A stretch of 64,000 nucleotides of DNA. It comes from a phage. The notes under the pieces are model-generated. The model saw only the letters and a program-made list of their open reading frames with translations. It did not search any database and had not been told where the DNA came from. Positions 4,418-51,300 of this stretch are shown piece after piece. The translations under genes were made by a program, and so were the position numbers. The DNA lies in the sequence record PX915676.1. One strand, written 5' to 3'. Numbering within the stretch: position 1 is the first letter of the stretch; every line of letters begins with the position of its first letter.

Positions 4418-4669
4418 ATGGCTATCAAAGAAGTTAAGTTATCAAACGGCTTTTCTTGTTTTGTTGGTGGGCAATCTATCGAGTTTAATACACTTGATGG
4501 TCAGATAATCTTGCCTGTTATCACTTTTTGCAGGATGGAATATCAGCCTCTTAAAGATTGGCTAGCCTTTGCTGATTTCGAAATTACCCGCGATGATTTC
4601 AAGTCGATCTATATTGACGGTGATTTGTCACTGGCTAACCTGTTAAGTGAGGGATTGATACATGGTTAA
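4418..4669 (+). CDS. hypothetical protein
   Basis: Track ORF 83 aa; CAGGAG SD. Confidence 0.6.
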   Translation: MAIKEVKLSNGFSCFVGGQSIEFNTLDGQIILPVITFCRMEYQPLKDWLAFADFEITRDDFKSIYIDGDLSLANLLSEGLIHG

Positions 4670-4916
4670 AGAGCATAGCTTTACTATTCCGACTCATAAT
4701 TACGGTGAGATTGATTTCTCGTATACGGATGACTCTGACAAGTGTTTAATCTTGTTTATTGTCGGCGATAATATTAAAACGGTGAGTTTTCCCGCTGTTG
4801 CTTTAATCATGGATACCCTCCTAGCTGGTCAGTATTTGGCGCAACGTCGGATTCTTCTTTCACTGGAAGAGATCGAACTGCTTAGAGTAGCACTTTTTAA
4901 AGGTAAAGGCAACTAA
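4662..4916 (+). CDS. hypothetical protein
   Basis: Track ORF 84 aa; start overlaps upstream stop (ATGGTTAA), translational coupling. Confidence 0.55.
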   Translation: MVKEHSFTIPTHNYGEIDFSYTDDSDKCLILFIVGDNIKTVSFPAVALIMDTLLAGQYLAQRRILLSLEEIELLRVALFKGKGN

Positions 4917-5018
4917 TGATTCATGATTATTTTTGGCGTTGCTTGTTCGTTGCTGCGGTGGCGTTATTCGTCGCTGATATGCTGTATTCTTACATTCTCT
5001 AACTAAAGGTTGATTGTC

Positions 5019-5384
5019 ATGGGTATTATTAAATTCGTAGTGAAAGTATTTGTAGGCTTCTTCCTTGTCGTTCTCCTGTTAGGTGTCCTGCTGTCGGCTA
5101 TGGGTAGCGTTAAGGCTGCAACGTTCTCCCCTGCTACGGTTGACGGTTTACAGTGCACCTATTTGATCGAAAACTATGAAACTGGTAAAAAGTCACCTAA
5201 AGTTATTATTTTGCATGTAAATGATTTCGATCATGTGCAATCATATGATAAAACTATTCAACTGGTAAATGAAACCACTGGTAAGCAAATTACGGTCGAT
5301 CACTTGATGCGCTCATCGTTGACACTCTTTGATGAGTCCATGAATGAAATGGCATCCGGTAACGGTCAATGTGTAAATCCATAG
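5019..5384 (+). CDS. hypothetical membrane/secreted protein
   Basis: Track ORF trimmed to ATG 5019; N-terminal hydrophobic stretch FVVKVFVGFFLVVLLLGVLLSAMG; AAAGG SD. Confidence 0.55.
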   Translation: MGIIKFVVKVFVGFFLVVLLLGVLLSAMGSVKAATFSPATVDGLQCTYLIENYETGKKSPKVIILHVNDFDHVQSYDKTIQLVNETTGKQITVDHLMRSSLTLFDESMNEMASGNGQCVNP

Positions 5385-5460
5385 GCTTAATCTTTCTCCT
5401 GTATTGTGCCGTAGTCATGCCTATGGTCATAATTTATCTGATGCTTTAAATCCTTCCTAT

Positions 5461-5489
5461 AAGCCTCGCTATGAGGCTTTTTTCTTTTA
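5461..5489 (+). terminator. intrinsic terminator
   Basis: AAGCCTC-GCTAT-GAGGCTT hairpin followed by TTTTTTCTTTT. Confidence 0.8.
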
Positions 5490-5767
5490 TAAGGTGATTG
5501 TATACCTTACTCCCTTTTAGCTCGTTGTGATGCGTTACAGGACGTTAAATACTGCTTTACAAGCCGTTTCCTATGATGTATCACTCGCGCCCGTTCTTTT
5601 ATCTATCCCACTATAAAAAGTTTAAAATAATTTGCTTTACCCTATTGCAACCTCATCTGATTAGCGTATACTTCATTTCATCGGGTACGATGTAAAACAT
5701 ACAAGGCAAGAAATTGCCCCGCTCTTTAAAAATCAGGCTAGAAAGTGAAAATATTCTTAAAAAGAGT

Positions 5768-5796
5768 ATTGACACCGAAAACAGCCTGATATATAG
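5768..5796 (+). promoter_or_regulatory. sigma70-type promoter (TTGACA-N17-TATAGT)
   Basis: Perfect -35 at 5768-5773, 17-nt spacer, TATAGT at 5791-5796; A/T-rich upstream. Confidence 0.65.
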
Positions 5797-5900
5797 TGAG
5801 CATAGTCAGCGATGACTTAAAAAATCCCGCTCTTTAAAAACTTATCATCTTGCCCTTTCGCATAGATTCACGCGAGATAAGGGAAAGGAATTAAAAGAAG

Positions 5901-6035
5901 ATGATAAAAAGAGTTGCAAACGTGGTTAAAGTAGTCCATACTAACCACAAGTTAGCAGATACACCGCTAACAAGTTCCCAAATCAACGTATCGCGGGAAA
6001 GGTGGCACATAGTGCAGCGAGTAGTTCAGGGTTAG
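5901..6035 (+). CDS. small ORF (44 aa) in promoter-proximal leader
   Basis: ATG with AAGGA SD 11 nt upstream; MIKRVANVVKVVHTNHKLADTPLTSSQINVSRERWHIVQRVVQG; below track size cut-off; weak support. Confidence 0.25.
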   Translation: MIKRVANVVKVVHTNHKLADTPLTSSQINVSRERWHIVQRVVQG

Positions 6036-6217
6036 GCGTCCTGTTAATGAATCAGTAAGCCTTCAATGTGACAGTGATTAGCAGACACTTTAAAAGGCTA
6101 AACGCTCTTTAACAATATGAATCATTAGTTAAGCCTCACCGCTTAATCTTCAATCAAATAAAGCTGATTGATATATCCTCCCAATAGCGGGAACGACGAA
6201 AAAAGATTAAAAAGCGG

Positions 6218-6246
6218 TTGACAGCGAAAACAACATGATTCATAAT
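6218..6246 (+). promoter_or_regulatory. sigma70-type promoter (TTGACA-N17-CATAAT)
   Basis: -35 TTGACA 6218-6223, 17-nt spacer, CATAAT 6241-6246; shares TTGACAsCGAAAACA with promoter at 5768. Confidence 0.65.
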
Positions 6247-7169
6247 GAGAACTCACTAAGCAAATCATCGCTTCAGTGAAAAGCGTAACAACGGCTAACA
6301 GTTGCATAGTGTGAGAAAGCACACTGATAGATTTACCGCTCTTTAATAATTTAAACATTCTCCTATATCGGTTGAATATGTTAGATGATAATAACCATCG
6401 GATAACATACCAGATAAAACGGCGTAAAACTCCCTAAATTATCAGGGTAAACAGTTTTACACTCCCTTACTGGAAACGTCACCACTGATAAACGGATTCA
6501 TCGAGTACACGCAAAGACTTAAGCTAATCGCCCACGGTTAAGGGTAGCGGCGGTCATCGCTAACATGGTGCTACGGTGAAAGAAGTTAATCAGGGTAGGC
6601 AATCCCGACGAATTAACGCTCAATTGAGAGCGGCGGGGAGTGGTTAAAAAGTGGCAAATTGCTATTTAACAATAAGGTTTAGTGTGAACGTTTACGATGT
6701 GAACGGCTTGAGATTCATCTTATGATGAAAGTACATAGTCGGTTTATGTAGTAAACTTGCCGAAAGATATAAAACGTCGGAACATTAGACGGTCAATGAC
6801 TCTTTCGCAATAGTATCCCGTAGTGGGCGATGACTAGCGATTGAGAGTTGATATAAAAGGATAGGCGAGAGCGAAAGCAAAGTAAACGATATTGCCGACG
6901 GTTACAATAACGTAACTAATTAGAGTCGGACGCACTGCCTTATTGTGATGATTGATCATCGCTATCAGGTCGGCTTCGTTTATAGCGACTAATTAAAGAT
7001 ACCAGATGAAACATCACGGATAAGGAGGCGGCAAGGTTAAGTCCTGATAAGACCGCCTCACTTACCTATAACTACTTAATAGTGAGTGGTTAGAGTTAAG
7101 TTAATAGTGACTTAAACAAGCTCATAGAGAGCGGGGCAATAGCGCCCTTACAATTGAAAGGTGAATATC

Positions 7170-8069
7170 ATGGCTAAAATCTTTACTCTGGTTAACGAAT
7201 CCGGTTTTAATGCTCTGGCTAACAACATTCGTAGTAATAACGCGGCGATCAAACAAGATGTTTCTAACTTCCTGTTAGGGCACTTACAGCACTTCCGCAG
7301 CAATGGTAAGAAGTTAGATGTATTGCAGGCGGCGGTTGACTTCCTGTTAACCGAACGTTTCCGCGATATGGATGTTATTGCCACCGCGATTACTTTCTTA
7401 ACTCCTATCAAGTTTAACACCGACGCGGCTAATGGTCGTAAAAAGTGGATTAATCTGGAAGGTGAAGCGAAAGCTAAAGAAGATGCGAAAGAAGCGCAAA
7501 TTAAAACCAAAATGGAGCAAAACCGTGCCCGCTGGTCAAACGCTTTCGAAAACTTCGCGTTAGGCCGTGAAATTGAAGTCGATAACCCTAACTTTTACAA
7601 GGGTTGTAATGACAACGTGGCGGCACACCTGCAAATACCGGCGAAAAACAAGGAAGATTTTAATCAGGATATTTACGCTTTAGTTGAACGCTTGAATGCA
7701 ATCCGTATTGAAGCCAAATTACTGGCTGATGAGCGCAACGGCGCTACTAGTGATAACACTATCGCCCTGAGTGAAGAAGTAGGGAAGGTTAAAAAATCCT
7801 TTGATTCACTCATCAAGAAAGTCACGGCCTCAACGGTAGCGATCTCAGATGATTATCTGATGAACGCATCAAGCAAAGAACTGGAATCTCTGGACTCTTA
7901 CGCTGATGAAATGGAAAAGACTATTGCATCTATGCAGGAGAAGTTAGAAAGTCTGCGTGGTCGTATCTCTTCAACGGTTGCTACCCGTACCGAACAAGCG
8001 GCGAAAGCAGAAGAGGAAGAAGTATTGCGTAAAGCGGCTGAAATTATGGCGGCACGTCAGGCGGCATAA
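7170..8069 (+). CDS. hypothetical protein (299 aa)
   Basis: Track ORF trimmed to ATG 7170 (MAKIFTLVNESG...) with AAAGGTG SD; followed by strong terminator. Confidence 0.65.
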   Translation: MAKIFTLVNESGFNALANNIRSNNAAIKQDVSNFLLGHLQHFRSNGKKLDVLQAAVDFLLTERFRDMDVIATAITFLTPIKFNTDAANGRKKWINLEGEAKAKEDAKEAQIKTKMEQNRARWSNAFENFALGREIEVDNPNFYKGCNDNVAAHLQIPAKNKEDFNQDIYALVERLNAIRIEAKLLADERNGATSDNTIALSEEVGKVKKSFDSLIKKVTASTVAISDDYLMNASSKELESLDSYADEMEKTIASMQEKLESLRGRISSTVATRTEQAAKAEEEEVLRKAAEIMAARQAA

Positions 8070-8092
8070 GTAAGACAATTTGAATAAACATA

Positions 8093-8126
8093 AGGCGCTA
8101 CCTTAACGGGTAGTGCCTTTTCTTTT
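8093..8126 (+). terminator. intrinsic terminator
   Basis: GGCGCTACC-TTAAC-GGGTAGTGCC hairpin (one G-U pair) plus TTTTCTTTT. Confidence 0.8.
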
Positions 8127-8180
8127 ATCAGTGCATTGATTCAGTGCATTAATCAAAGAATCTAATCAAAGGTGACGATC

Positions 8181-8399
8181 ATGTTAATTACACATACCAC
8201 GATTTATCGGAATCTTGTCAACGGTCAACATTACCGACTATCTAAAAAGTATGGCGTTGAATGTAAATGTGTGCTTACCGGTGAATGGTATCCGTCGCCA
8301 ATGAAGATTGAAACGTTGGAACGTGAAGCGATCAGCTATATCATAACGCAAGAAACAACATTAGGTCGTGTCTTAAGAAAGATGGGATTGAGAAAGTGA
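8181..8399 (+). CDS. hypothetical protein
   Basis: Track ORF trimmed to ATG 8181 with AAAGGTG SD. Confidence 0.5.
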   Translation: MLITHTTIYRNLVNGQHYRLSKKYGVECKCVLTGEWYPSPMKIETLEREAISYIITQETTLGRVLRKMGLRK

Positions 8400-8614
8400 T
8401 ATTCAGTAATAATTTTGGTAAGTGTCCTATTTGTGAGAAACATCGCAGTACGGGAAACCATCGCAAATGTAGTAAGATATTACAGCTCCAACGCGATAAC
8501 AATCATTGGGATACTGTACACACCAATCAACGTAAAGAAGAAGTTAGAAAAATGGCTGTTGAGTCTTCTTATCATCATTCACGTCGAATCAATCACGTTA
8601 AGGTATACGGATAA
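8396..8614 (+). CDS. hypothetical small Cys/His-containing protein
   Basis: Track ORF; GTG start overlapping upstream stop; CPICEKH...C motif. Confidence 0.45.
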   Translation: MIFSNNFGKCPICEKHRSTGNHRKCSKILQLQRDNNHWDTVHTNQRKEEVRKMAVESSYHHSRRINHVKVYG

Positions 8615-8823
8615 TGATCACTAATATCTCAGAGTTTAAGAAAGCTCCCTCTCGTCTGTTAGGCCGTCGTGTTGTATATCTTTATAGCAATAAAGGTAAA
8701 AGTACAACCGGACGAATTACAACGGTGAGTAGTTGCAACAAAAAACTATTGCAATTAAGTGTAGTTATGGATGATGGTACAATCCTGCTACGCAGTTGGA
8801 AGTCATTTAGTTTACTTGATTAA
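8614..8823 (+). CDS. hypothetical protein
   Basis: Track ORF 69 aa; ATG overlaps upstream stop (TAATG). Confidence 0.5.
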   Translation: MITNISEFKKAPSRLLGRRVVYLYSNKGKSTTGRITTVSSCNKKLLQLSVVMDDGTILLRSWKSFSLLD

Positions 8824-8892
8824 GTTATTTGTTCAAGCCTATCGACTTGATGGGCTTGCCCGATATAACTTATCACTGAAAGGAATAAGATT

Positions 8893-9336
8893 GTGGCTAA
8901 ATCAAAAATCAGCATGAAGGGCGGGCGTTGTTTTTCTATCTCTGAACTGGAGAAAGAGAAACCGAAGGCAACTAATCACGTTAGTAAGCGTAGTTTAAAA
9001 CGTCGTGCTGCAAAGGCTGAGGCTGAATCCCACGTTCCTTCCAGTGTGGCAAAACGTGTAGGCCATCGTGTCCATCGTGCTGATGCGTTGTTGTTAGCTG
9101 ATCATAGACGTTCTTTGTTAAAGAGCGGGGGAGCTAAAACCGAAGAAGAGAAGAAGCTAGAAATCTTCTGTAATGGTCGCACTCGTGGTAAACAGAAGTT
9201 TAAGGGTAGCACGAAAGACCCGCAGGCATTCCCTAAGACAAGCCAGTGTGCACCTGATGTTTTCTACGCAGATAGTAAACACAAGTGGGGCGTTGAAAAA
9301 TACATCGACCCCATCAAAGAGGCAAGGGTTAAGTAG
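8893..9336 (+). CDS. hypothetical basic protein
   Basis: Track ORF 147 aa, Lys/Arg-rich; GTG start with AAAGGAA SD. Confidence 0.5.
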   Translation: MAKSKISMKGGRCFSISELEKEKPKATNHVSKRSLKRRAAKAEAESHVPSSVAKRVGHRVHRADALLLADHRRSLLKSGGAKTEEEKKLEIFCNGRTRGKQKFKGSTKDPQAFPKTSQCAPDVFYADSKHKWGVEKYIDPIKEARVK

Positions 9337-9416
9337 TAGGAATATAGCCCCCTCTTTTAGTACTGTGACGCTCTTTCTGTAGCGTCGTGCCCTCTCCCCA
9401 TTTGAAGCTTCCGCAT

Positions 9417-9439
9417 AGCCGCCTTTGAGCGGCTTTTTG
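9417..9439 (+). terminator. intrinsic terminator
   Basis: AGCCGC-CTTTGA-GCGGCT hairpin + TTTTT. Confidence 0.7.
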
Positions 9440-9501
9440 CGTTGCTGTAAGTGCATTTGCGAGTGTATTTATAGCAACGGTTATGTGTTGCTTTCAGGTT
9501 T

Positions 9502-9527
9502 GCCCCGGCTACGGCTGGGGCTTTTTT
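9502..9527 (+). terminator. intrinsic terminator
   Basis: GCCCCGGC-TACG-GCTGGGGC hairpin + TTTTTT. Confidence 0.85.
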
Positions 9528-9577
9528 ATGCCCGTAAAAACAGGAGGTATCAAGTTCTGATAACAACGGCCCAGCTA

Positions 9578-9967
9578 ATGTTGACATTGACTATTTATTA
9601 TGAGGCAGGGAATCAGCCAACCGCATGTAAGGCTTTAGTTGCGGATACCGTAATAAATAGAATGGCACAACGAAAACTGACCGCTGAACAGGTGATAAGA
9701 CAAAAGAACCAGTTTGAGTGGATTCCGGTACTATTAAAACAGGAGAAACCTTATAAACGTTATGTAAAGCTGATTCGTGATAAAAATCCGATGACTAAGC
9801 AAGCCATTGGAGAAAGCGAGCGGCTAGCTAAACGTGCCCTTAAGAAGAATTATGTTCCGCTGTACAGTGGGACTTACTTTCAGAGTAAGAGCGAAGGGGT
9901 GCCAAAATGGTATGCCAATCCTATGTATTGTGGTGATTTAGTGTTCGATAACAGCTCTAGGGAGTAA
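9578..9967 (+). CDS. SleB-like cell wall hydrolase domain protein (putative)
   Basis: Track ORF 9425-9967 trimmed because its 5' part spans two terminators; from ATG 9578: ...TACKALVADTVINRMAQRKL...QKNQFEW...YSGTYFQ...VPKWYANP resembles the SleB/Hydrolase_2 pattern; start codon uncertain (AGGAGG at 9542 has no canonical start at ideal spacing). Confidence 0.45.
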   Translation: MLTLTIYYEAGNQPTACKALVADTVINRMAQRKLTAEQVIRQKNQFEWIPVLLKQEKPYKRYVKLIRDKNPMTKQAIGESERLAKRALKKNYVPLYSGTYFQSKSEGVPKWYANPMYCGDLVFDNSSRE

Positions 9968-10166
9968 TCACTAGTGCCAGATTTGACAAACTAAATTCCT
10001 TTATAAACCAACCACTTAGTAAATTTATTGAAAAAGATGGTAGTATTCTGGGACTATAGGTAATGCTCTGTATATAGACCCTTTGAAAATTTCTTAGAAA
10101 ATAAGTTTACTAAATATAACTTACTTAAATAATATTACTTTTAATCTCTGATAAAGGGTAAATAAT

Positions 10167-10463
10167 ATGACTTTAGAAGTATATAAATTCCTTTTTGTAA
10201 GCTGTTTAACTATCAGCGTTCTAGGATTTATTGTTCTCAGAAACAAAGCAGCAAGCTGGGAGAGAATGTATAAATCCCTAGTCCGAGTGGATGAGATGTA
10301 TAATGAGAAAGTTAAAGTAACACTCAACGATCTTATTATGCAAGTTGAAGACAGAAACAAACGTCTTCAGAACCTCAATCATGAAGTGTTGCGCCTTGCT
10401 CGTGCTAATGAAGACTTGCGAGTGGCTATTGCTAAACAGCAGGAGATTAACAATGAAGCATGA
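10167..10463 (+). CDS. membrane-anchored coiled-coil protein
   Basis: Track ORF 98 aa; N-terminal TM (FLFVSCLTISVLGFIVL) then charged helical region. Confidence 0.55.
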   Translation: MTLEVYKFLFVSCLTISVLGFIVLRNKAASWERMYKSLVRVDEMYNEKVKVTLNDLIMQVEDRNKRLQNLNHEVLRLARANEDLRVAIAKQQEINNEA

Positions 10464-10710
10464 TATTAATACAGCCCCTGTAGTCAAGCAACTGAAAGAC
10501 CTGAAGGTGGGGAGTGTTTTTGAAACTGTTCCACCTAAAAATAAAATATATCTTACAGTAAAGCTAGATTCCTCAACCGTTTATTCAGCTAGTTGGAAGC
10601 CTGACGAAAGAGTAGTAGTAGATCTCACTTCGGATAGAATAACAATGTTGAGAAAAGATACTGTTGTTCAGGTAGTTGATAATGCTCGACTTACCAATAA
10701 GGTGGATTAA
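10453..10710 (+). CDS. small paralog family protein (G[DSE]VF motif family), member 1
   Basis: ATG 10453 with AGGAG SD; LKVGSVF...KIYLTV motif shared with 9 other small ORFs. Confidence 0.6.
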   Translation: MKHDINTAPVVKQLKDLKVGSVFETVPPKNKIYLTVKLDSSTVYSASWKPDERVVVDLTSDRITMLRKDTVVQVVDNARLTNKVD

Positions 10711-10712
10711 AG

Positions 10713-10949
10713 ATGAAAGTTAATATTAAATCCGATCGTACAATGCTTCGCTTAAATAACATGAAGCCGGGGGTTCTGTTTGAGCGTAAAGAATCCCTTT
10801 ACATTAGAACTGACACATTATACGCAGATAACTATGTCAACTGTGTTGATGTGGTAACTGGAAAGCTCATGCCTTTTAAACGGGATGAAGTTTGCCAAGT
10901 TCGCAGTGATCTCCACATAACCAATATAGAGACTAAAGATGAAGATTAA
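10713..10949 (+). CDS. small paralog family protein, member 2
   Basis: Track ORF; MKPGVLF...LYIRTD motif. Confidence 0.6.
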   Translation: MKVNIKSDRTMLRLNNMKPGVLFERKESLYIRTDTLYADNYVNCVDVVTGKLMPFKRDEVCQVRSDLHITNIETKDED

Positions 10950-11196
10950 TCTTGAAGTAAATGAACCGTCTTTGTGTGTTGGTGATCTCAAACTTGGAGA
11001 TGTATTCCAAATCAGGGAAACACGAGCAGATTTCTACATGGTTGTTCAGCTATTTACCCCACAGATTGAAGAGACCAAGCCTTCTGATGGTGGTTGTGTC
11101 GTCCTTAGTCTAACAAATAAGCAAGTCCTTAAGCTTAGCTCGAAAAGCAAGGTTGTTCTTCTTCATGATGTTGTTATTACCAACAAGGGTAAGTGA
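10939..11196 (+). CDS. small paralog family protein, member 3
   Basis: Track ORF; LKLGDVF...FYMVVQ motif. Confidence 0.6.
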   Translation: MKINLEVNEPSLCVGDLKLGDVFQIRETRADFYMVVQLFTPQIEETKPSDGGCVVLSLTNKQVLKLSSKSKVVLLHDVVITNKGK

Positions 11197-11415
11197 ATGG
11201 AAATTAAAGTAGTTGATTATCCTAAATATGCAAATGCAGAAGACGTTAAAAGTGGTGATGTTTTCTCTTACGATAGACGTTTCTGGCTGATGTTGGAAGA
11301 TAAAACTCCTGATGGTTTGTGTAAGGCCGCCGATCTGAACAGTGGTTCTGTTGAAGTCTTCGGTTTATCAACCACTGTTATGCCACGTCCTGATCTGTGT
11401 TTATCCCAAAAGTAA
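11197..11415 (+). CDS. small paralog family protein, member 4
   Basis: Track ORF; VKSGDVF...FWLMLE motif. Confidence 0.6.
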   Translation: MEIKVVDYPKYANAEDVKSGDVFSYDRRFWLMLEDKTPDGLCKAADLNSGSVEVFGLSTTVMPRPDLCLSQK

Positions 11416-11424
11416 CATCGACTT

Positions 11425-11529
11425 ATAGCCCTTGTGTTTATCAGAGGGCTATGTGAGGGTGTTCCTCATTAACTTATTAATTCAGGCATATGCCACACCG
11501 CTAGGGAGAGCTTGCTCGAACATCCGGTG
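11425..11529 (+). promoter_or_regulatory. conserved intergenic element, copy A (hairpin ATAGCCC/GGGCTAT + core CTAGGGAGAG-hairpin-CTCGAACATCCG)
   Basis: Near-identical core and compensatory stem changes relative to copy B at 16791-16904. Confidence 0.5.
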
Positions 11530-11773
11530 CTAGACTAAAACCTGTTAATTTTCGAAAGACTTTCTGATATGTAGGGGTACGTATTAGTTTGGGATTCAGG
11601 AGACTTCCTAGGGGTAGGGAGTCTTCACCAGTTGGAATAAGAGATAGCTCTAGAACCTGAACTCTTAGGCAGAGAAGGTCGGCAATGAGTACGCGGTCAG
11701 GATTAGTCTACTGACTAGGGCTATCCCTTATATCAACTGGCAATAATGCTTCCACTAACAAAGAGAGATAGGT

Positions 11774-11914
11774 ATGAAAGTATCAACCAAACGTATGAAC
11801 CGCCCTGAACGTATGGATGCAGTAGCTAATGGTGCTCTGAAACTGGAAGGCTTTTGGATTCATGCAATGTCAGCCATCCGTAACAAGCAAGGTGGTTGGA
11901 CGTATAACAGTTAA
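11774..11914 (+). CDS. small ORF (46 aa)
   Basis: ATG with GAGAGATAGG SD-like sequence; MKVSTKRMNRPERMDAVANGALKLEGFWIHAMSAIRNKQGGWTYNS; followed by terminator. Confidence 0.35.
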   Translation: MKVSTKRMNRPERMDAVANGALKLEGFWIHAMSAIRNKQGGWTYNS

Positions 11915-11924
11915 TAAATAAAAA

Positions 11925-11953
11925 GGCTGCCTTCGGGTGGCCTTTGTTGTTTT
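11925..11953 (+). terminator. intrinsic terminator
   Basis: GGCTGCC-TTCG-GGTGGCC hairpin + TTTGTTGTTTT. Confidence 0.7.
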
Positions 11954-11996
11954 AATTAAGGGACAACTCTTACTTAAACTAACAAGAGGTGCTTAT

Positions 11997-12350
11997 ATGA
12001 GGCGCATGGTTAAAGATTGGGTAACTAAATCAGGTCTTCGTGCTGTGATTATGCACATGAACGACTCCCATTTTTGTGGATATGTAGAGCTACCAGACAG
12101 CTTAAAACATAAAAACTTCACCGGATATAACGGAAAGGAAGAGGTTTGTTATGTAAATGTTCATGGTGGTGTCACATGGCAAGACACCCTTGAAGAGATG
12201 AGTGGTTTAAATACAATCGGATTTGATTGTGCCCATGCAGGTGATAAGACACGGTTCAACCCTAACGGGGTTACAAGAACAGAAGCGTTCTGCATCAACG
12301 AATGCGAACAAATGGCTGAACAACTGAGAGATCTCGAATCAAATGTCTAA
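11997..12350 (+). CDS. hypothetical protein
   Basis: Track ORF trimmed to ATG 11997 (MRRMVKDW...) with AGAGGTG SD. Confidence 0.6.
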   Translation: MRRMVKDWVTKSGLRAVIMHMNDSHFCGYVELPDSLKHKNFTGYNGKEEVCYVNVHGGVTWQDTLEEMSGLNTIGFDCAHAGDKTRFNPNGVTRTEAFCINECEQMAEQLRDLESNV

Positions 12351-12519
12351 GCAAACAATCAAGAATACACAAGCTGGTTACTCTTATGTTAACTCTCCTT
12401 GCTGCGGTGCTCGTATTAATCTGGTTAAGGAAGAGGTTCGTATCGTTCAGCGTGGCGCTACTGTTGTTCGTTCATGCTGTGTCTGTGGTAATGATATTTT
12501 CATTAAAGGTAAAGTATGA
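12343..12519 (+). CDS. small Cys-rich protein (58 aa)
   Basis: ATG overlapping upstream gene end; SPCCGAR...SCCVCGND pattern; below track cut-off. Confidence 0.4.
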   Translation: MSKQTIKNTQAGYSYVNSPCCGARINLVKEEVRIVQRGATVVRSCCVCGNDIFIKGKV

Positions 12520-12740
12520 TTATCGTTCGCTCTGAGCCTAAAGATAACACTTTTGGTAGTCTCCGTAATGGTGATGTGTTCTCCCTAGAGATAGATGGGG
12601 ATACAAAACCTCCTTTATATATGAAGGTTATGCACAGACATGCTATCTGTATAAACAACCCTGAAACAAGATTTACGTTTGACAGGGGTTGTCCTGTCAA
12701 ATTTTATCAAGCTACCCTAAACGTCAGGAGAGTAGGATGA
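12516..12740 (+). CDS. small paralog family protein, member 5
   Basis: Track ORF; LRNGDVF...LYMKVM motif; ATGA overlap with upstream stop. Confidence 0.6.
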   Translation: MIIVRSEPKDNTFGSLRNGDVFSLEIDGDTKPPLYMKVMHRHAICINNPETRFTFDRGCPVKFYQATLNVRRVG

Positions 12741-12988
12741 AAAACTTCCAAGCTGCACCGATAACTAAAGTGATCGAAGTTGACGATGTAATGATGACTG
12801 TTCCTCTGAACACTCGTTACATTGCAATTGACAAGATGGGTTATGTATGGGCTTGGAAGATTAAGCCTAGCTATAACGCACTGTTTGATGAGTTTGTTTG
12901 TACTGGTACGTATAGTCCTACATTCTTAGGCTTATTTGGAGAGTTTGAAGGTCAGTATAAAATCATAACTCTCCCTGCTTGTGCTTGA
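12737..12988 (+). CDS. hypothetical protein
   Basis: Track ORF trimmed to ATG 12737 with AGGAG SD. Confidence 0.55.
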   Translation: MKNFQAAPITKVIEVDDVMMTVPLNTRYIAIDKMGYVWAWKIKPSYNALFDEFVCTGTYSPTFLGLFGEFEGQYKIITLPACA

Positions 12989-12995
12989 GGTTATT

Positions 12996-13160
12996 ATGTT
13001 CAAGTGGTTTAAATATCTCTTCCATCTCCATGAATGGGAAACTGTAAAAGAGATTCGTTTAAATGTGTATGATGAGTTCGGTAAACTAGAAGACACAGGG
13101 ACTCGTTATATACTTCGATGTAAAACATGTGGTCATATCACCAAACGAGATATGATCTAA
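12996..13160 (+). CDS. small zinc-ribbon-like protein (54 aa)
   Basis: ATG with GAGG SD; ...RCKTCGH... ; below track cut-off. Confidence 0.4.
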   Translation: MFKWFKYLFHLHEWETVKEIRLNVYDEFGKLEDTGTRYILRCKTCGHITKRDMI

Positions 13161-13168
13161 ATAATTCT

Positions 13169-13244
13169 GCGCTCTTAGCTCAATGGATAGAGCAGTAGCC
13201 TTCTAAGCTATTGGTTACAGGTTCGAGTCCTGTAGGGCGCACCA
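13169..13244 (+). tRNA. tRNA-Arg (anticodon TCT)
   Basis: Hand-folded cloverleaf: acceptor GCGCTCT/AGGGCGC, D-stem GCTC/GAGC, anticodon stem GTAGC/GCTAT with loop CTTCTAA, T-arm ACAGG-TTCGAGT-CCTGT, discriminator A and encoded CCA. Confidence 0.85.
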
Positions 13245-13249
13245 CATTT

Positions 13250-13365
13250 AGGGCTAGTATGGGTGCGGCACCAGAGTTAGTGTATCCCTGTTGAGGCAAG
13301 TGCTTTTATAACAGTGGGAATTGCTTTCTTAGTGAGCTTCTGGTTCGATTCCAGATAGTCCACCA
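13250..13365 (+). other. tRNA-like remnant or atypical tRNA (canonical T-arm and acceptor-like helix, body does not fold)
   Basis: TCTGG-TTCGATT-CCAGA T-arm at 13339-13355; 6-bp helix GGGCTA (13251-56)/TAGTCC (13356-61) then CCA; about 80 nt between cannot be folded into D and anticodon arms by eye. Confidence 0.25.
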
Positions 13366-13384
13366 AATCAAATAGGAGGTAGTT

Positions 13385-13666
13385 ATGAGTTGGGGTGGTG
13401 TAATATCCTTAATCTGTATCTTCCTTGTCTGCATAGCCCTTACAGGCTGCGTACAGAGCCGTCCTGATGGATGGTGTGCAGTAGCAGTGGAAGGTGTTTG
13501 TGTTTCTCGCTGGCATAAAGGTGAGAAGGTTCCTTCTGGTGAAATTGATATGCGTTACAGTGGTATCTCATGTCTGAATGGTGCAGCAGTAGATGAGGAG
13601 ACTAAAACCTTATCCGATGCGCAGTGGTGTGGTGGCTCTACAGTTACCACTGGTAAGGAGTGGTAA
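13385..13666 (+). CDS. lipoprotein (signal peptide with lipobox LTGC)
   Basis: Track ORF; AGGAGG SD; MSWGGVISLICIFLVCIALTGC... Confidence 0.65.
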   Translation: MSWGGVISLICIFLVCIALTGCVQSRPDGWCAVAVEGVCVSRWHKGEKVPSGEIDMRYSGISCLNGAAVDEETKTLSDAQWCGGSTVTTGKEW

Positions 13667-13667
13667 T

Positions 13668-13829
13668 GTGACTATTGAAGAACTCATTAGAACTCTTGAA
13701 AACTTATCTGTTACTTGTGGTCCAGATGCTATCGTCTACATCGAAGAACCTTCAGGGAATGAATACCCTGTGAAAGAGGTTCTTGAGTACTCAGTAGGAG
13801 ATCTTTCATCAGTAACCCTAAGACATTGA
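13668..13829 (+). CDS. hypothetical protein
   Basis: Track ORF trimmed to GTG 13668 with AAGGAG SD 8 nt upstream. Confidence 0.45.
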   Translation: MTIEELIRTLENLSVTCGPDAIVYIEEPSGNEYPVKEVLEYSVGDLSSVTLRH

Positions 13830-13836
13830 GGTGTAT

Positions 13837-14085
13837 ATGACAGCTCATTATTGGAATACAAAGAAGCTTCTTGAAGAGATGGCTGGGGGTAGTAGGTTCC
13901 AGTTAAACTCCATGCTTCGAATGGATGCCCGCTCTTTACGTTTCCAAGTAAAGATTGGTAACTTCAGTGATGGCCTTTATTATACCTTGAAAGAAAGGAT
14001 TAAGAAGACTCACTTCATCATATATGGACTCAAACCGAGAACATATGTTAACTACATGTATTGGGATACATGCTACGATAATTGA
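13837..14085 (+). CDS. hypothetical protein
   Basis: Track ORF trimmed to ATG 13837 with GAGGTG SD. Confidence 0.55.
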   Translation: MTAHYWNTKKLLEEMAGGSRFQLNSMLRMDARSLRFQVKIGNFSDGLYYTLKERIKKTHFIIYGLKPRTYVNYMYWDTCYDN

Positions 14086-14092
14086 GGTTATT

Positions 14093-14314
14093 ATGTTATT
14101 TGAAGCTAAGCAAACATTACCAGTAGTTCCTTTGTCTACACTTCTTAGTGGGAGTGCTTTTAGACATGATAATGGTTTTTGGATTAAGGGCGACCAAGAG
14201 GTTGGAGGGTATATTACCTGCATCAACATCTGCAACGGCGTTGTTGACGGATTTCGTCCAGCCGCTGAAGTCACCCCTCAATCCAACGCAAAGGTTGTAG
14301 GTTTAGTTTACTAA
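14093..14314 (+). CDS. small paralog family protein (divergent member, LSGSAF...FWIKGD)
   Basis: Track ORF trimmed to ATG 14093; initiation region TTGAGGTTATTATGTT identical to that of ORF 12996. Confidence 0.5.
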   Translation: MLFEAKQTLPVVPLSTLLSGSAFRHDNGFWIKGDQEVGGYITCINICNGVVDGFRPAAEVTPQSNAKVVGLVY

Positions 14315-14365
14315 GGAGCCTGTATTAGTTGTTTTGGTGGCGGTGAAGTAGATGACGATGATGAC

Positions 14366-14497
14366 ATGGAATCCAACGGTACATGTCCTGATTGTGGATG
14401 TGAGACATGGGATGGGGTGTCTGTATACCCTGCCTGTAGTTACTCACCAGTGATCTGTAAAACATGTGGAGATCAACCTTGTGATCAGTCCTGTTAG
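14366..14497 (+). CDS. small Cys-rich protein (43 aa from ATG; 57 aa if initiated at in-frame ATT 14324)
   Basis: CPDCGCETW...CSYSPVICKTCGDQPCDQSC; AAGGAG at 14313-14318 sits 5 nt before in-frame ATT rather than before the ATG. Confidence 0.3.
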   Translation: MESNGTCPDCGCETWDGVSVYPACSYSPVICKTCGDQPCDQSC

Positions 14498-14714
14498 TAT
14501 CTTGATTGTCTACTTGACAGGTATGGTGATAGTTTCAGCTCTGATAAAATTCCTTGACGTAAAAGGTAGTGTGGAGTTCAGAGGGTGGAACAACGAACCA
14601 AACCTATCAAAGATAGCAATTATAGTTTTTCTATGGCCTATCGTTGCTGTGGTTTTTATATCCCTTGTCTTGTGGGCTGCCCTGTGGGATTTTATACTCC
14701 CTAACAAGAACTAA
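14466..14714 (+). CDS. hypothetical membrane protein (two predicted TM segments)
   Basis: Track ORF; start uncertain (GTG 14466 or ATG 14523). Confidence 0.45.
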   Translation: MEINLVISPVSILIVYLTGMVIVSALIKFLDVKGSVEFRGWNNEPNLSKIAIIVFLWPIVAVVFISLVLWAALWDFILPNKN

Positions 14715-15009
14715 GAACTTATCGTGAAGGATTCTTACGAGAGTCCTTTGAGATAGGACTTCAGATCTCCTATCAAACTAACATTCACGTAACTAGCCCA
14801 TAAGGGCGTTACCCTTTAATAACCCAGCCCACTAAGGGGGCGGGAGTTTAGTGCTGGATTGGCTTTACGCTTATTCCTACAAAGGCAACCGATTGTTAGA
14901 TCTTACATGCAATATTAATTAATAGGATAAGGGAGGATTCGTCCCCTCCCCCTATTTTATTGAATCTTTATCTAAGCAAGTCTTATATAAACGTTTAATT
15001 GGAGGATGT

Positions 15010-15321
15010 ATGAAAGCACGAAGAACTATATGGACTCCGATGCAGATTGAAAATCTTCGGAGACTAATCAAAGAGTACTCAGTTCAAGAAGTTGCTCAGA
15101 TTATGAATGTAACGGAGAATGCTGTTAACACAGCTTGCACTAAATTCGGAATATCAAGAGCTTCAATCCGAGTTAAATGGTCTGAAGAAGAAGACCAGTT
15201 CCTTATCCGTAACGCTGGGTTCATGTCTATTCAGAGAATGGCTGACATGCTCGGTAGAAGTTATGCTGCTGTACAGAACAGGGCATGTATGCACCTTAAT
15301 ATTAGCCTCAAACTTAAATAG
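15010..15321 (+). CDS. putative DNA-binding regulator with two tandem HTH-like repeats (GcrA/Myb-like pattern)
   Basis: Track ORF; GGAGG SD; WTPMQIENLRRL...VQEVAQIMNVTENAV and WSEEEDQFL...MSIQRMADMLGRSYAAVQNR repeats. Confidence 0.55.
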   Translation: MKARRTIWTPMQIENLRRLIKEYSVQEVAQIMNVTENAVNTACTKFGISRASIRVKWSEEEDQFLIRNAGFMSIQRMADMLGRSYAAVQNRACMHLNISLKLK

Positions 15322-15329
15322 GAATCAAT

Positions 15330-15823: not shown

Positions 15824-15825
15824 GA

Positions 15826-16071: not shown

Positions 16072-16304
16072 GGGTAAGTAAGTGAAAACAAAAGCATATT
16101 CTTATGATGATATGATTAACCAGAAAGGCTTCGGTCAACGACAGCCTGACGGTTCGATTATCTGGTTTGTAAACGGACAGAAAAAGGTAGCTAAATAAGC
16201 CCTCTTCTCTCCTCCTTTTAGTACTATGACGCCTCTCTGTGGGCGGCCCAATTTGCGTAGGGAATTCCCTCTACGCAGCCATGACTTTTTAAGGAATTTC
16301 CCCT

Positions 16305-16780: not shown

Positions 16781-16790
16781 AGTAACATCT

Positions 16791-36105: not shown

Positions 36106-36114
36106 TAATGTATA
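36106..36114 (+). promoter_or_regulatory. TAATGTATA motif (candidate phage sigma-dependent promoter element)
   Basis: Exact 9-mer about 37 nt upstream of ATG 36151; same 9-mer at 43133 (+) and 52851-52859 (-), each upstream of a gene start. Confidence 0.45.
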
Positions 36115-36150: not shown

Positions 36151-36465
36151 ATGGCAGATCATGTAGGAAAGAGAGATTATGCACAAGAAAGACGTACCGC
36201 AATTGCCCGTGGTGAGACAGGCGTTGGGAGCAAGAGCGGAGATGCTCAGCGCCACCGTGCACGTCGCATCGTTGAAAAGCGCGATGGAAAAGCTGCTGTC
36301 AGAGGTAAAGATGTTGGACACAAACGAGCTGTCAAGTCTGGAGGCTCTAATGCGTCAAGCAACTTACGTGTTGAATCAGTCAGCTCAAACCGTTCAAACG
36401 GCGGCAAAAGTGGTGATCGAGCTGGAAAAGCAGCTGGAGCACGCAAAGGAGCTTTAAGCTCATAA
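36151..36465 (+). CDS. highly basic Gly/Ser/Lys/Arg-rich protein
   Basis: Track ORF; AAGGAG SD; G-first/T-third codon periodicity favours this frame over overlapping ORF 36179-36457. Confidence 0.5.
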   Translation: MADHVGKRDYAQERRTAIARGETGVGSKSGDAQRHRARRIVEKRDGKAAVRGKDVGHKRAVKSGGSNASSNLRVESVSSNRSNGGKSGDRAGKAAGARKGALSS

Positions 36466-48390: not shown

Positions 48391-51300
48391 TCACTCCTTA
48401 GGTCGAACTCTTACACGGAGTCTCGATTGACGCTTACTGCGTTCAAGCTTCTCTGACAATGAGCCACGTTTAATCTTCGGCTTCCCTTCGTCATTAAACT
48501 TCTCCAAGAACTGCAAGTACTCAGTACGATTCGTTGTCTTGTAAGAAGGAATCTTGATATCAGGGTTCTCTTCAATCACACGTCTCATCTTCGCTACATC
48601 ATCCCTACCAAGCAACTTACTCTTAGCCTGTTCAGCTGTAGAACCAAAGATCTTCTCCAGTGCTCTAGATTTGTTACCGCCTGCGGAAGAAGCACCAAGT
48701 TTAGCAATAGCAGAGTAATCATCAGCACTAAACCAAGCTACTGGATTATCACCATACTTCTTCTTGTTTTCAGCAGCGGTCTGCAATGCACGCACAAAGC
48801 GACGGTTGTTACCAGCCTTATCTGCACCATGAACCCTGTCTAAAACTTCAGCCACACTAGCCAACTCATCCAAGCTCTTCCCACTCAAGAAAGCTTTCTC
48901 TACTTTATCAGCAAAGACCTCTTCCTGTTGTTTAATGCTTTCCAAGATATCAGAATTTGCTTGAGATCTTTCATCATCAGGCAGAGCAGAACGAATCTTC
49001 TCCATCTCCAACTCTTCCTCTTGCAGTTTCTTAATATCAGAGTCAACCTTCTGAGCCTCCTCAATAGCCTTCCTAGTATCCGCATCCAAGTTATCAAGCT
49101 TACCTTCAGTATCTCCAGTAACCTTAACAATCTCTTTCTCGATAGGAGTCATTGATTCGTACTTCTTAGCAAACTTCTCAACATCAGCTTCGATACGAGA
49201 ACGAGCATTCTGATGTTCAGTAGGAGTCATAGGTTTCTCAAGAAGTGCATAACGGTTGTCCATATAGGAACCAGCAAACGCTTCAGCATCCTCTCTAGAT
49301 ATGCCCTTATCTTCCATAGTACGCATCAGGCGGCGATGAATGTCATCACGTTGACGTTGTACTGCCATAAGGTCATTCTCACGCTCTTGGGCCGCTTTAA
49401 GTTCTTCACTGCGCTTAACTCTCTTGTCCACATCAAACTTACGGTTCATCTCTTCCGCTTGCTCATACATCTTGTTCCACTTGGCCTGACGAGCATCTTC
49501 CTCTGCATCAGTTAAACGACGCTGACGATCAAGGTAATCTGACTCGGCGTTATGGATACGTTCGATATAACTACGGAACTTCTCTGGAGGAACTGGAGAG
49601 TTCTTGTCATGGTGAGCAGCCAACTGTTTCAATGTACGAGATTCCTGAGCCTCACGAACGGGTTTAGGTAAACCTTCCATCATCTTCTCAATCTCGCTCT
49701 TCTGAGCTGCAATAGCCTCTAGAGTTTTACGTTCATTCTCAACAACAGCCTTAGCATCCGAACGAGCCTGAGCCTTTTTCCTGAGTGTAGCAAGACGTTC
49801 TTCACGAGCCTGTAAATGCTTAGCAGCAGCTTCGTACTGAGAGTTCTTGTTAGCTTTGTTGAAGGCATTCACTTCTCTGTTATAGGTGTTAATAAACCCA
49901 TCCCAAATATCCTTCATCTGACCAACTTCCAAAGCCTCTTCCCTACCAGCCTTCTCTGAAGATTTAAACTTCCCATCTACAAAGTCATTCATCAGCTTAC
50001 GCATAGCATCTTTCTGAGCAGGACGTAAAGGTTCTGAATCAATCAAAGCATCAATCTCAGACTGAAGCTCTTTCTTCTGGTCAACCAGCTTAGGAGCATT
50101 CTTGTTATCGAAAGCTTTATTCTCTTCTAGAGCTTGTTGGTACAGTCTATCAAACTCATCTTCACGCTGCTTCTGATACAACCTTTCAGCACGACGTTTC
50201 AGACTATCCAAGTTAGTTACGTTCCCACCTAAACCTTTCTCTTCAGCACGTAATGCCTTAGTAGCAATGTCTTCTGGCAGACCACGTTCCTTAACCCATT
50301 CAGCAAAATTAGTTCGTACAGTGTTGTTCTTAGCAGTAGCAATACCTTGCTGAGAAGCCAGCTGGTTACGAGCCATTTCTTCATGACGTTCAGTGTTGAT
50401 AGCATTGTCTTCCTGACGAATACGACGCATCAATTCCTTAGGATCACCTTTATAAGCCAAGAAGTTTTCAGCAGTAGCTTTAGCCTTAGCAGCCTTAGAG
50501 TACAGAGAACGAGCAAAACGTTCTGCACGATCTTTAGTAGCCTGACGAGCAGCACTTGACATAGCAGCTAAACGCTCTACACCACTTGCCGGTTTAACGT
50601 CCTGTACAGCTTCCTTAGGAGCTTTAGGAGCACGAGCAGGTAATGGCTCAGCTTTGACTGTTGGTTCCTCTACGGTTGGTTCTGGAGCCTGTGCGGCCTC
50701 TTCTTGAGCACGTTGCTGTTCCATTGCACGACGCTCCTCTAGAGGGTTACGAGCAGGGAGAGGTTCAGCCTGTGGAGCTTGTTCGACTGGAGCTTCTTGA
50801 GCAGCAGCTGCCTCTTCTTCAGCGCGACGCTGTTCAGCCTGACGGATAGCACGTCTTTGCGCAACTAAATCACGAGCTGTAAGAGGGGTTTCTTGAGGAG
50901 CAGAAGAAGGAAGATTTTCTTCCGTCATAGTACTAGAAGAAGGCTCCCGAACCGGTTCGGTTTCCACGTCATTTTGCGTCTTAAATTTAATGTCATCAAC
51001 AACTGGTTCTTCTTCCATTTTAGCACGAGCTTCATCAGCAGTAGATTTAGCACGAGCAACTTCCAAATCACCACGAGCCAGAGAGCGGATAGCTTCACTG
51101 TTAGATTCTTGTTGCTTAACACGTTGAGAACGGGCACGCTGAGAAGAGAAGCGATTCAGAGCATATTTAGCAGCACCGAGAGTGTTCATTACCAGACTGG
51201 GTGAAGAAGCCTCACGGAATCCATCATCAGTCAGGGAAGTCCAACCACGATCTTGGTTGCTCATGAATTTAGCTGTATTGTTCAGAGTATAAGCATCTTG

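What the first reader, a model, noticed from the sequence alone, without database searches (positions are those of the whole stretch)
9352..9371. Second conserved intergenic motif CTTTTAGTACT(G/A)TGACGC (copies at 9352-9371 and 16214-16232)
Two approximately 45-nt stretches downstream of gene stops share (A)GCCC..CTCTTTTAGTACTRTGACGC(C)TCT.TGT.G. Each is followed by hairpins (intrinsic terminators at 9417 and 9502 for copy 1; GCGTAG-GGAATTCC-CTACGC palindrome at 16248-16270 for copy 2). Candidate promoter, processing or regulator-binding site.
Basis: seen in the sequence. Interest (0 to 1): 0.45.

Follow-up and report, generated by a model that had tools for sequence, protein, structure and literature searches.

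The report
Conserved phage DNA nicking-site motif
The repeated intergenic motif is real, and its invariant core TACTRTGACG matches the sequence at which related Pseudomonas phages carry site-specific single-strand breaks in their packaged DNA, so this E. coli phage probably has three fixed nick sites and encodes a small HNH-type enzyme that may make them.

Summary
The window is a phiEco32-like coliphage (Kuravirus). In detail: both copies exist. A third copy lies on the minus strand at 50922-50939, inside a late gene.

Across 6-9 genomes from three genera, the only invariant block at all three sites is TACT-R-TGAC-G. This equals the consensus 5'-TACT/RTGMC-3', at which Pseudomonas phages tf and Rembedalsseter carry mapped single-strand nicks.

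The window shares a collinear replication and structural gene set with tf. More distant relatives are strongly enriched for the motif on one strand:
- Salmonella phage 7-11: 12:1
- Proteus phage Privateer: 9:0 (6 TACTGTGAC + 3 TACGGTGAC)
- Cronobacter phage GAP52 and Aeromonas phage LAh_9: a TACGGTGACG variant, 8:0 and 6:1 (related 9-mer ACTACGGTG 10:1)

The sites lie almost always on the non-template strand.

All these lineages encode a ~104-aa divergent HNH protein (window 36151-36465). It is the most conserved protein shared with tf, which makes it the candidate nickase.

The motif is not a sigma-70 promoter, a gp36 promoter or a nut-like site. Nicking in this phage is inferred, not shown. 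I rate it a new member of a known kind, of moderate interest.

The parts
9361..9370 (+). Site 1 core TACTGTGACG. The predicted nick lies between 9364 and 9365 on the + strand.
   Evidence: The core is invariant in 9 related genomes while the flanks diverge. It matches the tf nick consensus TACT/RTGMC and the 14 mapped tf sites.
9367..9386 (+). Short inverted repeat overlapping site 1: GACGCT, loop CTTTCTGT, AGCGTC.
   Evidence: It is retained with changes in SU7, Paul and NJ01, and is weak or lost in 4E8 and KBNP1711.
16222..16231 (+). Site 2 core TACTATGACG. The predicted nick lies between 16225 and 16226 on the + strand.
   Evidence: The core is invariant in 8 related genomes.
16230..16245 (+). 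Short inverted repeat overlapping site 2: CGCC, loop TCTCTGTG, GGCG.
   Evidence: In 4E8 and KBNP1711 the stem is GACGCT/AGCGTC, so the sixth stem pair reads T-A there (as at site 1) against C-G in the window's site 2.
50923..50932 (-). Site 3 core TACTATGACG on the minus strand, inside the phi32_26-like late gene on its coding strand. The predicted nick lies between 50929 and 50928.
   Evidence: It is conserved, including synonymous positions, in phiEco32, LAMP, KBNP1711, SU7 and ECBP2.
50909..50923 (-). Short inverted repeat after site 3: GGAAGA, loop AAA, TCTTCC.
36151..36465 (+). Candidate nickase: a 104-aa divergent HNH-type protein, homologous to phi32_58, to 7-11 gp068 and to an unannotated ORF at tf 16126-16413.
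36106..36114 (+). Exact gp36-type promoter element TAATGTATA, 36 nt upstream of the candidate nickase gene.
   Evidence: Gene 58 is listed among the six phiEco32 genes downstream of gp36-dependent promoters (PMC8948821).

Best explanation
The two intergenic copies, plus a third copy inside a late gene, are the three recognition sites of a site- and strand-specific DNA nicking system. This system is the same kind as the one that produces the 'localized single-strand interruptions' at 5'-TACT/RTGMC-3' in the related Pseudomonas podophages tf and Rembedalsseter.

Shown here: the invariant core is TACTRTGACG. The three sites keep their genome positions across three genera. The phage belongs to the same wider lineage as tf. 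Relatives carry many copies on one strand.

Inferred: late in infection a phage enzyme cuts the motif-bearing strand between T4 and R5. That strand is the non-template strand at all three sites. Packaged genomes would then carry ligatable nicks at about 9%, 19% and 64% of genome length from the early end. The most likely enzyme is the small HNH protein at 36151-36465, expressed from its own gp36-dependent promoter. In Kuravirus a short inverted repeat directly after each site may add to recognition or to nick persistence. The biological purpose of such nicks is unknown in every phage that has them.
For: Twelve of the 14 mapped tf sites are also followed by G, as are all three sites here.

(2) TACT-R-TGAC-G is the only invariant block at all three sites in 6-9 genomes of Kuravirus, Nieuwekanaalvirus and Suseptimavirus. 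The flanks diverge.

(3) Site 3 lies in a coding region and keeps its synonymous positions.

(4) The window shares collinear genes with tf: primase/helicase at 47% identity, DNA polymerase, two exonucleases, the amidoligase cluster, TerL and tail genes.

(5) Relatives are enriched for the motif on one strand. 7-11 has 12:1 against about 0.8 expected per strand, with a simulation maximum of 4. Privateer has 6:0 TACTGTGAC plus 3:0 TACGGTGAC. GAP52 has the variant TACGGTGAC at 8:0 and LAh_9 has it at 6:1 (ACTACGGTG 10:1). In tf, 7-11 and LAh_9 the motif is the most strand-asymmetric 9/10-mer found de novo; in GAP52 it is the top 10-mer and among the top 9-mers; in the AT-rich Privateer it does not rank among the top k-mers.

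(6) Every one of these lineages encodes the mini-HNH. One of its residues, G or K in the stretch SKS[G/K]DA, tracks T-type against G-type motifs.

(7) Nicks at this motif were mapped physically in tf by primer extension and ligase-reversible fragmentation, and in Rembedalsseter by strand-specific nanopore coverage (PMC3517423 and PMC11780129).
Against: No physical evidence of nicks exists for any phiEco32-like phage in the searchable literature.

In Kuravirus the 9-mer count is not above chance: 3 against 1.9 expected. The sites are also split 2:1 between strands, unlike tf at 14:0.

The two intergenic copies share extra flanking similarity and hairpins that the nick consensus does not need. 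A second, local function is therefore possible.

Confidence: 0.6

Rival explanations
1. The motif is a DNA-level recognition site for a phage or host protein that binds without nicking. Examples would be a replication-initiation, packaging-pause or ejection-pause signal, or an operator of the early HTH regulator.
For: The sequence-invariant asymmetric 10-mer shows no covariation, and the sites keep fixed genome positions. Both features fit any sequence-specific DNA-binding protein. The three Kuravirus sites also carry adjacent inverted repeats.
Against: In the two phages where the same consensus was examined physically, it marks a nick in nearly all molecules. No alternative binding protein co-varies with the motif, whereas the mini-HNH does. 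The HTH homologue (phi32_99) was not tested.
Confidence: 0.15
2. The motif is an RNA-level cis element in sense transcripts, UACURUGACG plus a small hairpin. Its function could be an endonuclease processing or stability site, a nut/put-like antitermination signal ahead of the terminators at 9417 and 9502, or the 5' boundary of a 3'UTR-derived small RNA.
For: All three Kuravirus copies are on the sense strand of their transcription units, and each is followed by a small stem. The sixth stem pair differs in a compensatory way (T-A against C-G) between site 1 and site 2, and between site 2 of 4E8/KBNP1711 and site 2 of the window. Copy 1 sits just upstream of two strong terminators inside the early operon. 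Its loop contains CGCTCTTTC, which resembles boxA. Authors working on 7-11 expect an undefined antitermination mechanism (PMC8948821).
Against: Two of the 14 tf sites and one 7-11 site lie antisense to the genes there. In relatives most copies sit inside coding regions, and tf, 7-11 and Privateer show no hairpin enrichment. The boxA-like string is absent from sites 2 and 3. The hairpin is weak or lost at site 1 of 4E8 and KBNP1711 while the 10-mer stays intact. Folding z-scores are unremarkable, -1.1 to -1.4. Rfam finds nothing there.
Confidence: 0.12
3. The motif is a promoter: a -10-like TACTRT with a GC-rich discriminator, used by host RNA polymerase with a phage factor.
For: TACTAT and TACTGT keep the T, A and final T of a -10 hexamer. 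The copies lie upstream of genes.
Against: There is no -35 element or extended -10 on the + strand at either copy. Neither copy resembles the gp36 element tAATGTAtA. Site 3 and most copies in relatives are intragenic. Copy 1 is followed by two terminators rather than a gene start.
Confidence: 0.03
4. The motif is a chance or neutral remnant of an intergenic duplication and has no function.
For: The 9-mer count in the window is within chance expectation. The two intergenic copies share flanks, which suggests common descent.
Against: The 18-mer repeat is far beyond chance. The 10-mer is invariant across three genera while its flanks decay. The same motif is independently enriched and strand-biased in distant relatives.
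Confidence: 0.02

Closest known systems
Localized single-strand interruptions at 5'-TACT/RTGMC-3' (WACTRTGAC) in LUZ24-like Pseudomonas podophages: tf, and Rembedalsseter (Vicosavirus), with predicted sites in LUZ24, PaP3 and other Bruynoghevirus phages
   Same: The core sequence is identical, including the R degeneracy and the following G. The phage lineage is related, with collinear replication, amidoligase and structural genes. The sites lie mostly on the non-template strand and cluster toward the early end. The same small HNH gene is present.
   Different: There are only three sites per genome, against 9-14. They are split 2:1 between strands rather than all on one strand. Two of the three are intergenic. 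Each is followed by a short inverted repeat and preceded by a pyrimidine tract. The host is E. coli. Nicks have not been shown physically.
Major nicks of coliphage T5 and BF23, and nicks of phiKMV-like phages
   Same: Both have a small number of fixed, strand-specific interruptions in virion DNA of a lytic phage with terminal repeats. In both the function is unknown and the nicks are dispensable in the laboratory (as discussed in PMC3517423 and PMC11780129).
   Different: The consensus sequences are unrelated: R/GCGCRGG for T5 and CGACNNNNNCCTA/CTCCGG for phiKMV-like phages. The phage lineages are also unrelated.
Small phage HNH nicking endonucleases, for example Gme HNH (4H9D), GVE2 HNH and I-HmuI
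   Same: The candidate enzyme has an H...N...N catalytic pattern. These structures are its best fold matches.
   Different: The candidate has no zinc-binding cysteines. Its N-terminal Arg-rich region is very strongly conserved. It is not next to the terminase, and its activity is untested.
Lambda nut and HK022 put antitermination sites
   Same: Those systems also have two copies in early transcription units. Each copy is a linear motif plus a small hairpin upstream of terminators.
   Different: The boxA-like string occurs only in copy 1. The hairpins are not conserved in sequence or loop type. A third copy lies in a late gene, and in relatives most copies are intragenic.

Membership tests
TACT/RTGMC localized-nick sites of LUZ24-like phages | Sequence matches 5'-TACTRTGMC-3' | tested here: met
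   All three window sites are TACT[G/A]TGAC followed by G.
TACT/RTGMC localized-nick sites of LUZ24-like phages | Physical single-strand break after position 4 in most virion DNA molecules | not testable with these tools
   This needs native-DNA sequencing, primer extension or alkaline gels. No such data for phiEco32-like phages appear in the searched literature.
TACT/RTGMC localized-nick sites of LUZ24-like phages | Over-representation of the motif, all copies on one strand | tested here: not met
   The window has 3 sites against 1.9 expected. The phiEco32 genome has exactly 3, split 2:1 between strands. The feature is met in the relatives 7-11 (12:1), Privateer (9:0), GAP52 (8:0, variant) and LAh_9 (6:1 for TACGGTGAC, 10:1 for ACTACGGTG).
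TACT/RTGMC localized-nick sites of LUZ24-like phages | Sites held at corresponding genome positions among related phages | tested here: met
   All three sites are present at homologous positions in Kuravirus, Nieuwekanaalvirus and Suseptimavirus.
TACT/RTGMC localized-nick sites of LUZ24-like phages | Phage belongs to the lineage that carries the system | tested here: met
   The window shares collinear homologues of primase/helicase, DNA polymerase, exonucleases, the amidoligase cluster, TerL and tail proteins with tf.
Sigma-70 promoter | -35 and -10 hexamers with 16-18 bp spacing on the transcribed strand | tested here: not met
   There is no + strand promoter-like site at 9340-9380 or 16200-16240.
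phiEco32 gp36-dependent promoter | Single element tAATGTAtA 6-8 nt upstream of the start site | tested here: not met
   No match with 1 mismatch or fewer lies at either copy.
Lambda-type nut site | Conserved boxA (CGCTCTTTA-like) plus boxB hairpin in every copy | tested here: not met
   The boxA-like CGCTCTTTC occurs only in the loop of copy 1. Copies 2 and 3 lack it.
HNH nuclease superfamily (candidate nickase 36151-36465) | Beta-beta-alpha-metal fold with a catalytic His and Asn/His metal ligands | tested here: inconclusive

The most novel reading that the evidence does not exclude
phiEco32-like coliphages, Salmonella 7-11-like phages, Proteus Privateer-like phages, Cronobacter GAP52-like phages and Aeromonas LAh-like phages all share one ancient genome-nicking system with the LUZ24-like Pseudomonas phages. 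Its long-sought nickase is the ~100-aa cysteine-less mini-HNH (phi32_58 family). That gene is unannotated or annotated in the wrong frame in tf. A single G/K residue in it co-varies with T or G at motif position 4. In Kuravirus the system is pared down to three hairpin-flanked sites, which would make the function of phage genome nicks testable in E. coli genetics.
Probability: 0.4. Interest if true: 0.7.

Novelty: new member of a known kind. Interest (0 to 1): 0.55.

Why it matters
Site-specific nicks in packaged phage DNA have been known for about 50 years in T5, and later in phiKMV-like and LUZ24-like phages. Neither an agreed function nor, for the LUZ24 group, an identified enzyme has followed.

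If the three sites here are nicked, three things follow:
- The TACTRTGAC system extends from Pseudomonas phages to several families of enterobacterial and Aeromonas phages.
- There is a concrete candidate nickase, with a motif variant (TACT against TACG) that can serve as a specificity test.
- There is a minimal three-site model in E. coli. Sites and enzyme can be mutated one at a time there, to ask what nicks do for ejection, transcription, recombination or defence evasion.

There is also a practical point. Nicks break native long reads and can confuse assemblies and engineering of these therapeutic-candidate phages.

Tried and rejected
- Rfam at gathering thresholds over the whole window found only tRNA-Arg.
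- A scan of viral contigs for TTTAGTACTNTGACGC gave only Kuravirus contigs plus single hits that look like chance, with no extra motif copies.
- The search for related loci with the upstream protein returned only 5 Kuravirus loci.
- RNA folding of both copies gave unremarkable z-scores.
- Sigma-70, gp36 and other sigma-like readings were rejected (and inspection).
- A CRP half-site (TGTGA) and a T7-type primase site were considered by eye and dropped, because copy 2 and the relatives do not fit.
- Hairpin enrichment next to the motif was tested. It is absent in tf, 7-11 and Privateer, so it is not part of the general system. An earlier MFE comparison was confounded by the GC-rich motif end.
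- The genome termini were checked for the motif. The repeat boundaries read GCT|AG(C/G)C and do not resemble it, so nicking is not simply terminus cutting.
- The two TACGATGAC sites in phiEco32 lack the flanking context and were not counted.
- A profile search of the HNH family against PDB sequences found nothing.

Full report
**Identity of the window.** BLAST of 8800-10000 against phage records gives 95-98% identity to about 75 phiEco32-like coliphages (Kuravirus, Gordonclarkvirinae). The window + strand corresponds to the phiEco32 minus strand. The + strand at 7-47 kb carries the early and middle genes, and the minus strand beyond about 48 kb carries late genes. Strong sigma-70 promoters sit at 5769-5797 and 6218-6246. 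The collapsed terminal repeat lies near 2768-2960.

**Checking the observation.** Both copies are present: CTTTTAGTACTGTGACGC at 9354-9371 and CTTTTAGTACTATGACGC at 16215-16232. Each lies just after a gene stop. Allowing three mismatches gives 3 matches against 0.09 expected, and 0 of 100 shuffles reach 3. The third match is CTTCTAGTACTATGACGG on the minus strand at 50922-50939. It lies inside the large late gene homologous to phi32_26, on that gene's coding strand. The terminators after copy 1 and the palindrome after copy 2 are real.

**What is actually conserved.** I collected the three sites from the window, phiEco32, Paul, NJ01, an IMG contig, LAMP, 4E8, KBNP1711 (Nieuwekanaalvirus), SU7 and ECBP2 (Suseptimavirus). 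Anchored on the motif, the only invariant block at every site in every genome is TACT-R-TGAC-G, with R = A or G.
- The upstream CTTTTAG and everything downstream vary. SU7 site 1 reads ccagtggtcaacTACTATGACgctc, and 4E8 site 1 reads ttctttgcagcTACTGTGACgttt.
- At site 3 the codons ACT RTG ACG GAA GA are identical in all six genomes, although the surrounding linker is only about 73% identical between genera.
- The complete phiEco32 genome has exactly three TACTRTGMC sites: minus strand 70592 and 63070, plus strand 27941.

**The match to a known motif.** The 9-mer TACTRTGAC is the consensus 5'-TACT/RTGMC-3' at which Pseudomonas putida phage tf carries 14 single-strand interruptions. All 14 are on one strand and are present in more than 90% of molecules. 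They were shown by run-off sequencing, primer extension and ligase-reversible fragmentation (PMC3517423). [quoted passage not shown] In the tf record, 12 of the 14 mapped sites are followed by G, as are all three sites here. By count alone the window is not enriched: 3 against 1.9 expected. The argument therefore rests on conservation and on relatives.

**Relatedness to the nicked phages.** A local BLASTP of window ORFs against tf ORFs finds a collinear shared set:
- COOH-NH2 ligase, amidoligase, glutamine amidotransferase and ATP-grasp genes
- primase/helicase (47% identity), 3'-5' exonuclease, DNA polymerase (40%) and 5'-3' exonuclease
- TerL and tail proteins

The SU10 paper also places the phiEco32 and LUZ24 groups as sister clades for head proteins.

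**More distant relatives.**
- **Salmonella phage 7-11 (89.9 kb):** 12 sites on the minus strand and 1 on the plus strand. A third-order Markov model expects about 0.8 per strand, with a maximum of 4 in 100 simulations. The sites cluster in the early right end and lie mostly inside coding regions.
- **Proteus phage Privateer:** TACTGTGAC at 6:0 plus TACGGTGAC at 3:0, in 65 kb.
- **De novo test:** I ranked the most strand-asymmetric 9- and 10-mers in each genome. This recovers TACTGTGAC in tf (11:0) and ACTACTGTGA in 7-11 (13:1). In Cronobacter GAP52 and Aeromonas LAh_9 it recovers a one-base variant: CTACGGTGAC at 8:0 and ACTACGGTG at 10:1. In the AT-rich Privateer the motif does not rank among the top k-mers.
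- **Strand rule:** in all these genomes the motif strand is almost always the non-template strand of the local genes.

The general form is (A)C-TAC-K-R-TGAC-G. None of the papers I could search reports this for enterobacterial or Aeromonas phages. Dougherty et al. state that they found no enrichment outside their Pseudomonas cluster.

**A candidate enzyme.** The most conserved protein between the window and tf is a 104-aa ORF at 36151-36465, homologous to phi32_58, at 62% identity.
- In tf it lies at 16126-16413, in a different frame from the annotated tf_29.
- The family keeps RGETGVGSKSGDAxRHRARR and VDH...GGSN...SNL...N, with H57, N71 and N80 invariant.
- 22 of 30 members hit Pfam HNH, best E 5e-4, and 12 hit HNH_3. 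All are below the curated cut-offs, and the window protein itself has no hit.
- The 7-11 homologue hits PHROG HNH families at 1e-4.
- tblastn finds the gene in 247 phage records: Pseudomonas 105, Escherichia 95, Aeromonas 11, Proteus 8, Salmonella 7, Cronobacter 6, Vibrio 3. These are the motif-bearing lineages, and they include NV1, a close relative of Rembedalsseter.
- One residue tracks the motif type. SKSGDA occurs in Kuravirus, tf and 7-11, which use TACT. SKSKDA occurs in GAP52 and LAh_9, which use TACG, and in Privateer, which uses both. The sample is small and the lineages are not independent.
- The gene has an exact gp36-type promoter element at 36106-36114. Gene 58 is one of the six genes known to lie downstream of gp36 promoters. 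That timing would allow nicking in mid to late infection, as described for phiKF77 in the tf paper.

**Kuravirus-specific features.** Each of the three sites is followed, within 0-3 nt of GACG, by a perfect 4-6 bp inverted repeat. Stems of 5 bp or more occur at 7% of control GACG/GCCG positions. There is no such enrichment in tf, 7-11 or Privateer. The two intergenic copies also share a pyrimidine-rich leader. Mosaic junctions between genomes lie close to the sites:
- a 158-bp insertion in Paul, ending 17 nt upstream of site 1
- a junction 7 nt downstream of site 2 in SU7 and ECBP2
- a 774-bp insertion in phiEco32 after the second terminator

These features may reflect a local second role. They may also be nick-stimulated recombination, or simply the usual plasticity of intergenic DNA.

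**Alternatives.**
- **Promoter readings fail**.
- **An RNA-level element** (processing, nut/put-like or sRNA) is compatible with the sense orientation and with the small stems that show one compensatory change. It does not explain antisense sites in tf and 7-11, the intragenic majority in relatives, the loss of the stem at site 1 in 4E8 and KBNP1711 while the 10-mer persists, or the absence of the boxA-like string from sites 2 and 3.
- **A non-cleaving DNA-binding site** cannot be excluded without wet-lab data.
- **The genome ends do not resemble the motif**.

**Verdict.** The functional core is the 10-mer TACTRTGACG. It most likely marks three site-specific nicks in the non-template strand, made by a phage enzyme for which the mini-HNH is the leading candidate. 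Membership of the TACT/RTGMC family is supported by sequence, lineage and positional conservation. The defining physical nick is untested, and the one-strand over-representation criterion is not met in Kuravirus itself. I rate it a new member of a known kind, with moderate interest.

Noticed in passing
L026 (phage tf) 16126-16413 + versus annotated tf_29 at 16115-16429: The tf homologue of the mini-HNH lies in a different reading frame from the annotated tf_29, which is described as a hypothetical protein with one TM region. The deposited annotation probably misses the real gene. This may be why no nickase candidate was named in 2012.
   Followed up: partly
L030/L031 (GAP52), L040/L032 (LAh_9), L033/L039 (Privateer): A one-base variant motif, acTACGGTGACg, is strongly strand-specific in GAP52 (8:0) and LAh_9 (6:1; the related 9-mer ACTACGGTG 10:1). 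It coexists with TACTGTGAC in Privateer. The mini-HNH residue in SKS[G/K]DA is K in these three lineages and G in the TACT-type lineages.
   Followed up: partly
window 9332-9344, 9530-9537, 16238-16305: Mosaic junctions between related genomes fall next to the sites. Paul has a 158-bp insertion with an extra ORF, ending 17 nt upstream of site 1. phiEco32 has a 774-bp insertion (genes 119 and 118) after the second terminator. SU7 and ECBP2 diverge 7 nt downstream of site 2 and carry about 470 bp there, against 67 bp in the window.
   Followed up: partly
phiEco32 genome positions 70592, 63070, 27941 (window 9361, 16222, 50932): Measured from the early (right) end, the three sites lie at 9.0%, 18.7% and 64.0% of genome length. 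From memory, and not checked here, the major nicks of T5 map at about 7.9, 18.5, 32.6, 64.8 and 99.5%. This may be coincidence.
   Followed up: no
window 13169-13241 +: tRNA gene (Rfam tRNA, 72 bits), corresponding to the tRNA-Arg annotated in phiEco32 and its relatives.
   Followed up: no
window 2768-2960 (minus strand orientation of phiEco32 1-193): A single collapsed copy of the 193-bp direct terminal repeat, so the window comes from a circularly joined assembly. In phiEco32 both repeat boundaries read GCT|AG(C/G)C.
   Followed up: partly
window 5769-5797 and 6218-6246 +: Two near-consensus sigma-70 promoters (TTGACA-17-TATAGT and TTGACA-17-CATAAT) lie in the long non-coding stretch upstream of the early genes. 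Terminator-like hairpins in 4500-17500 are far above the shuffle expectation (25 against 9.1).
   Followed up: no
window 36151-36465 +: In the closest Kuravirus members the residue before the catalytic His is Gly (KDVGHKR), where the rest of the family has Asp (VDHKK). The Kuravirus enzyme could therefore have altered activity.
   Followed up: no
window 9341-9369, minus strand: The reverse complement of site 1 (GTCACA) scores as a weak -35-like hexamer paired with TATATT (9 of 12). The equivalent at site 2 is GTCATA. I judged this to be chance.
   Followed up: no
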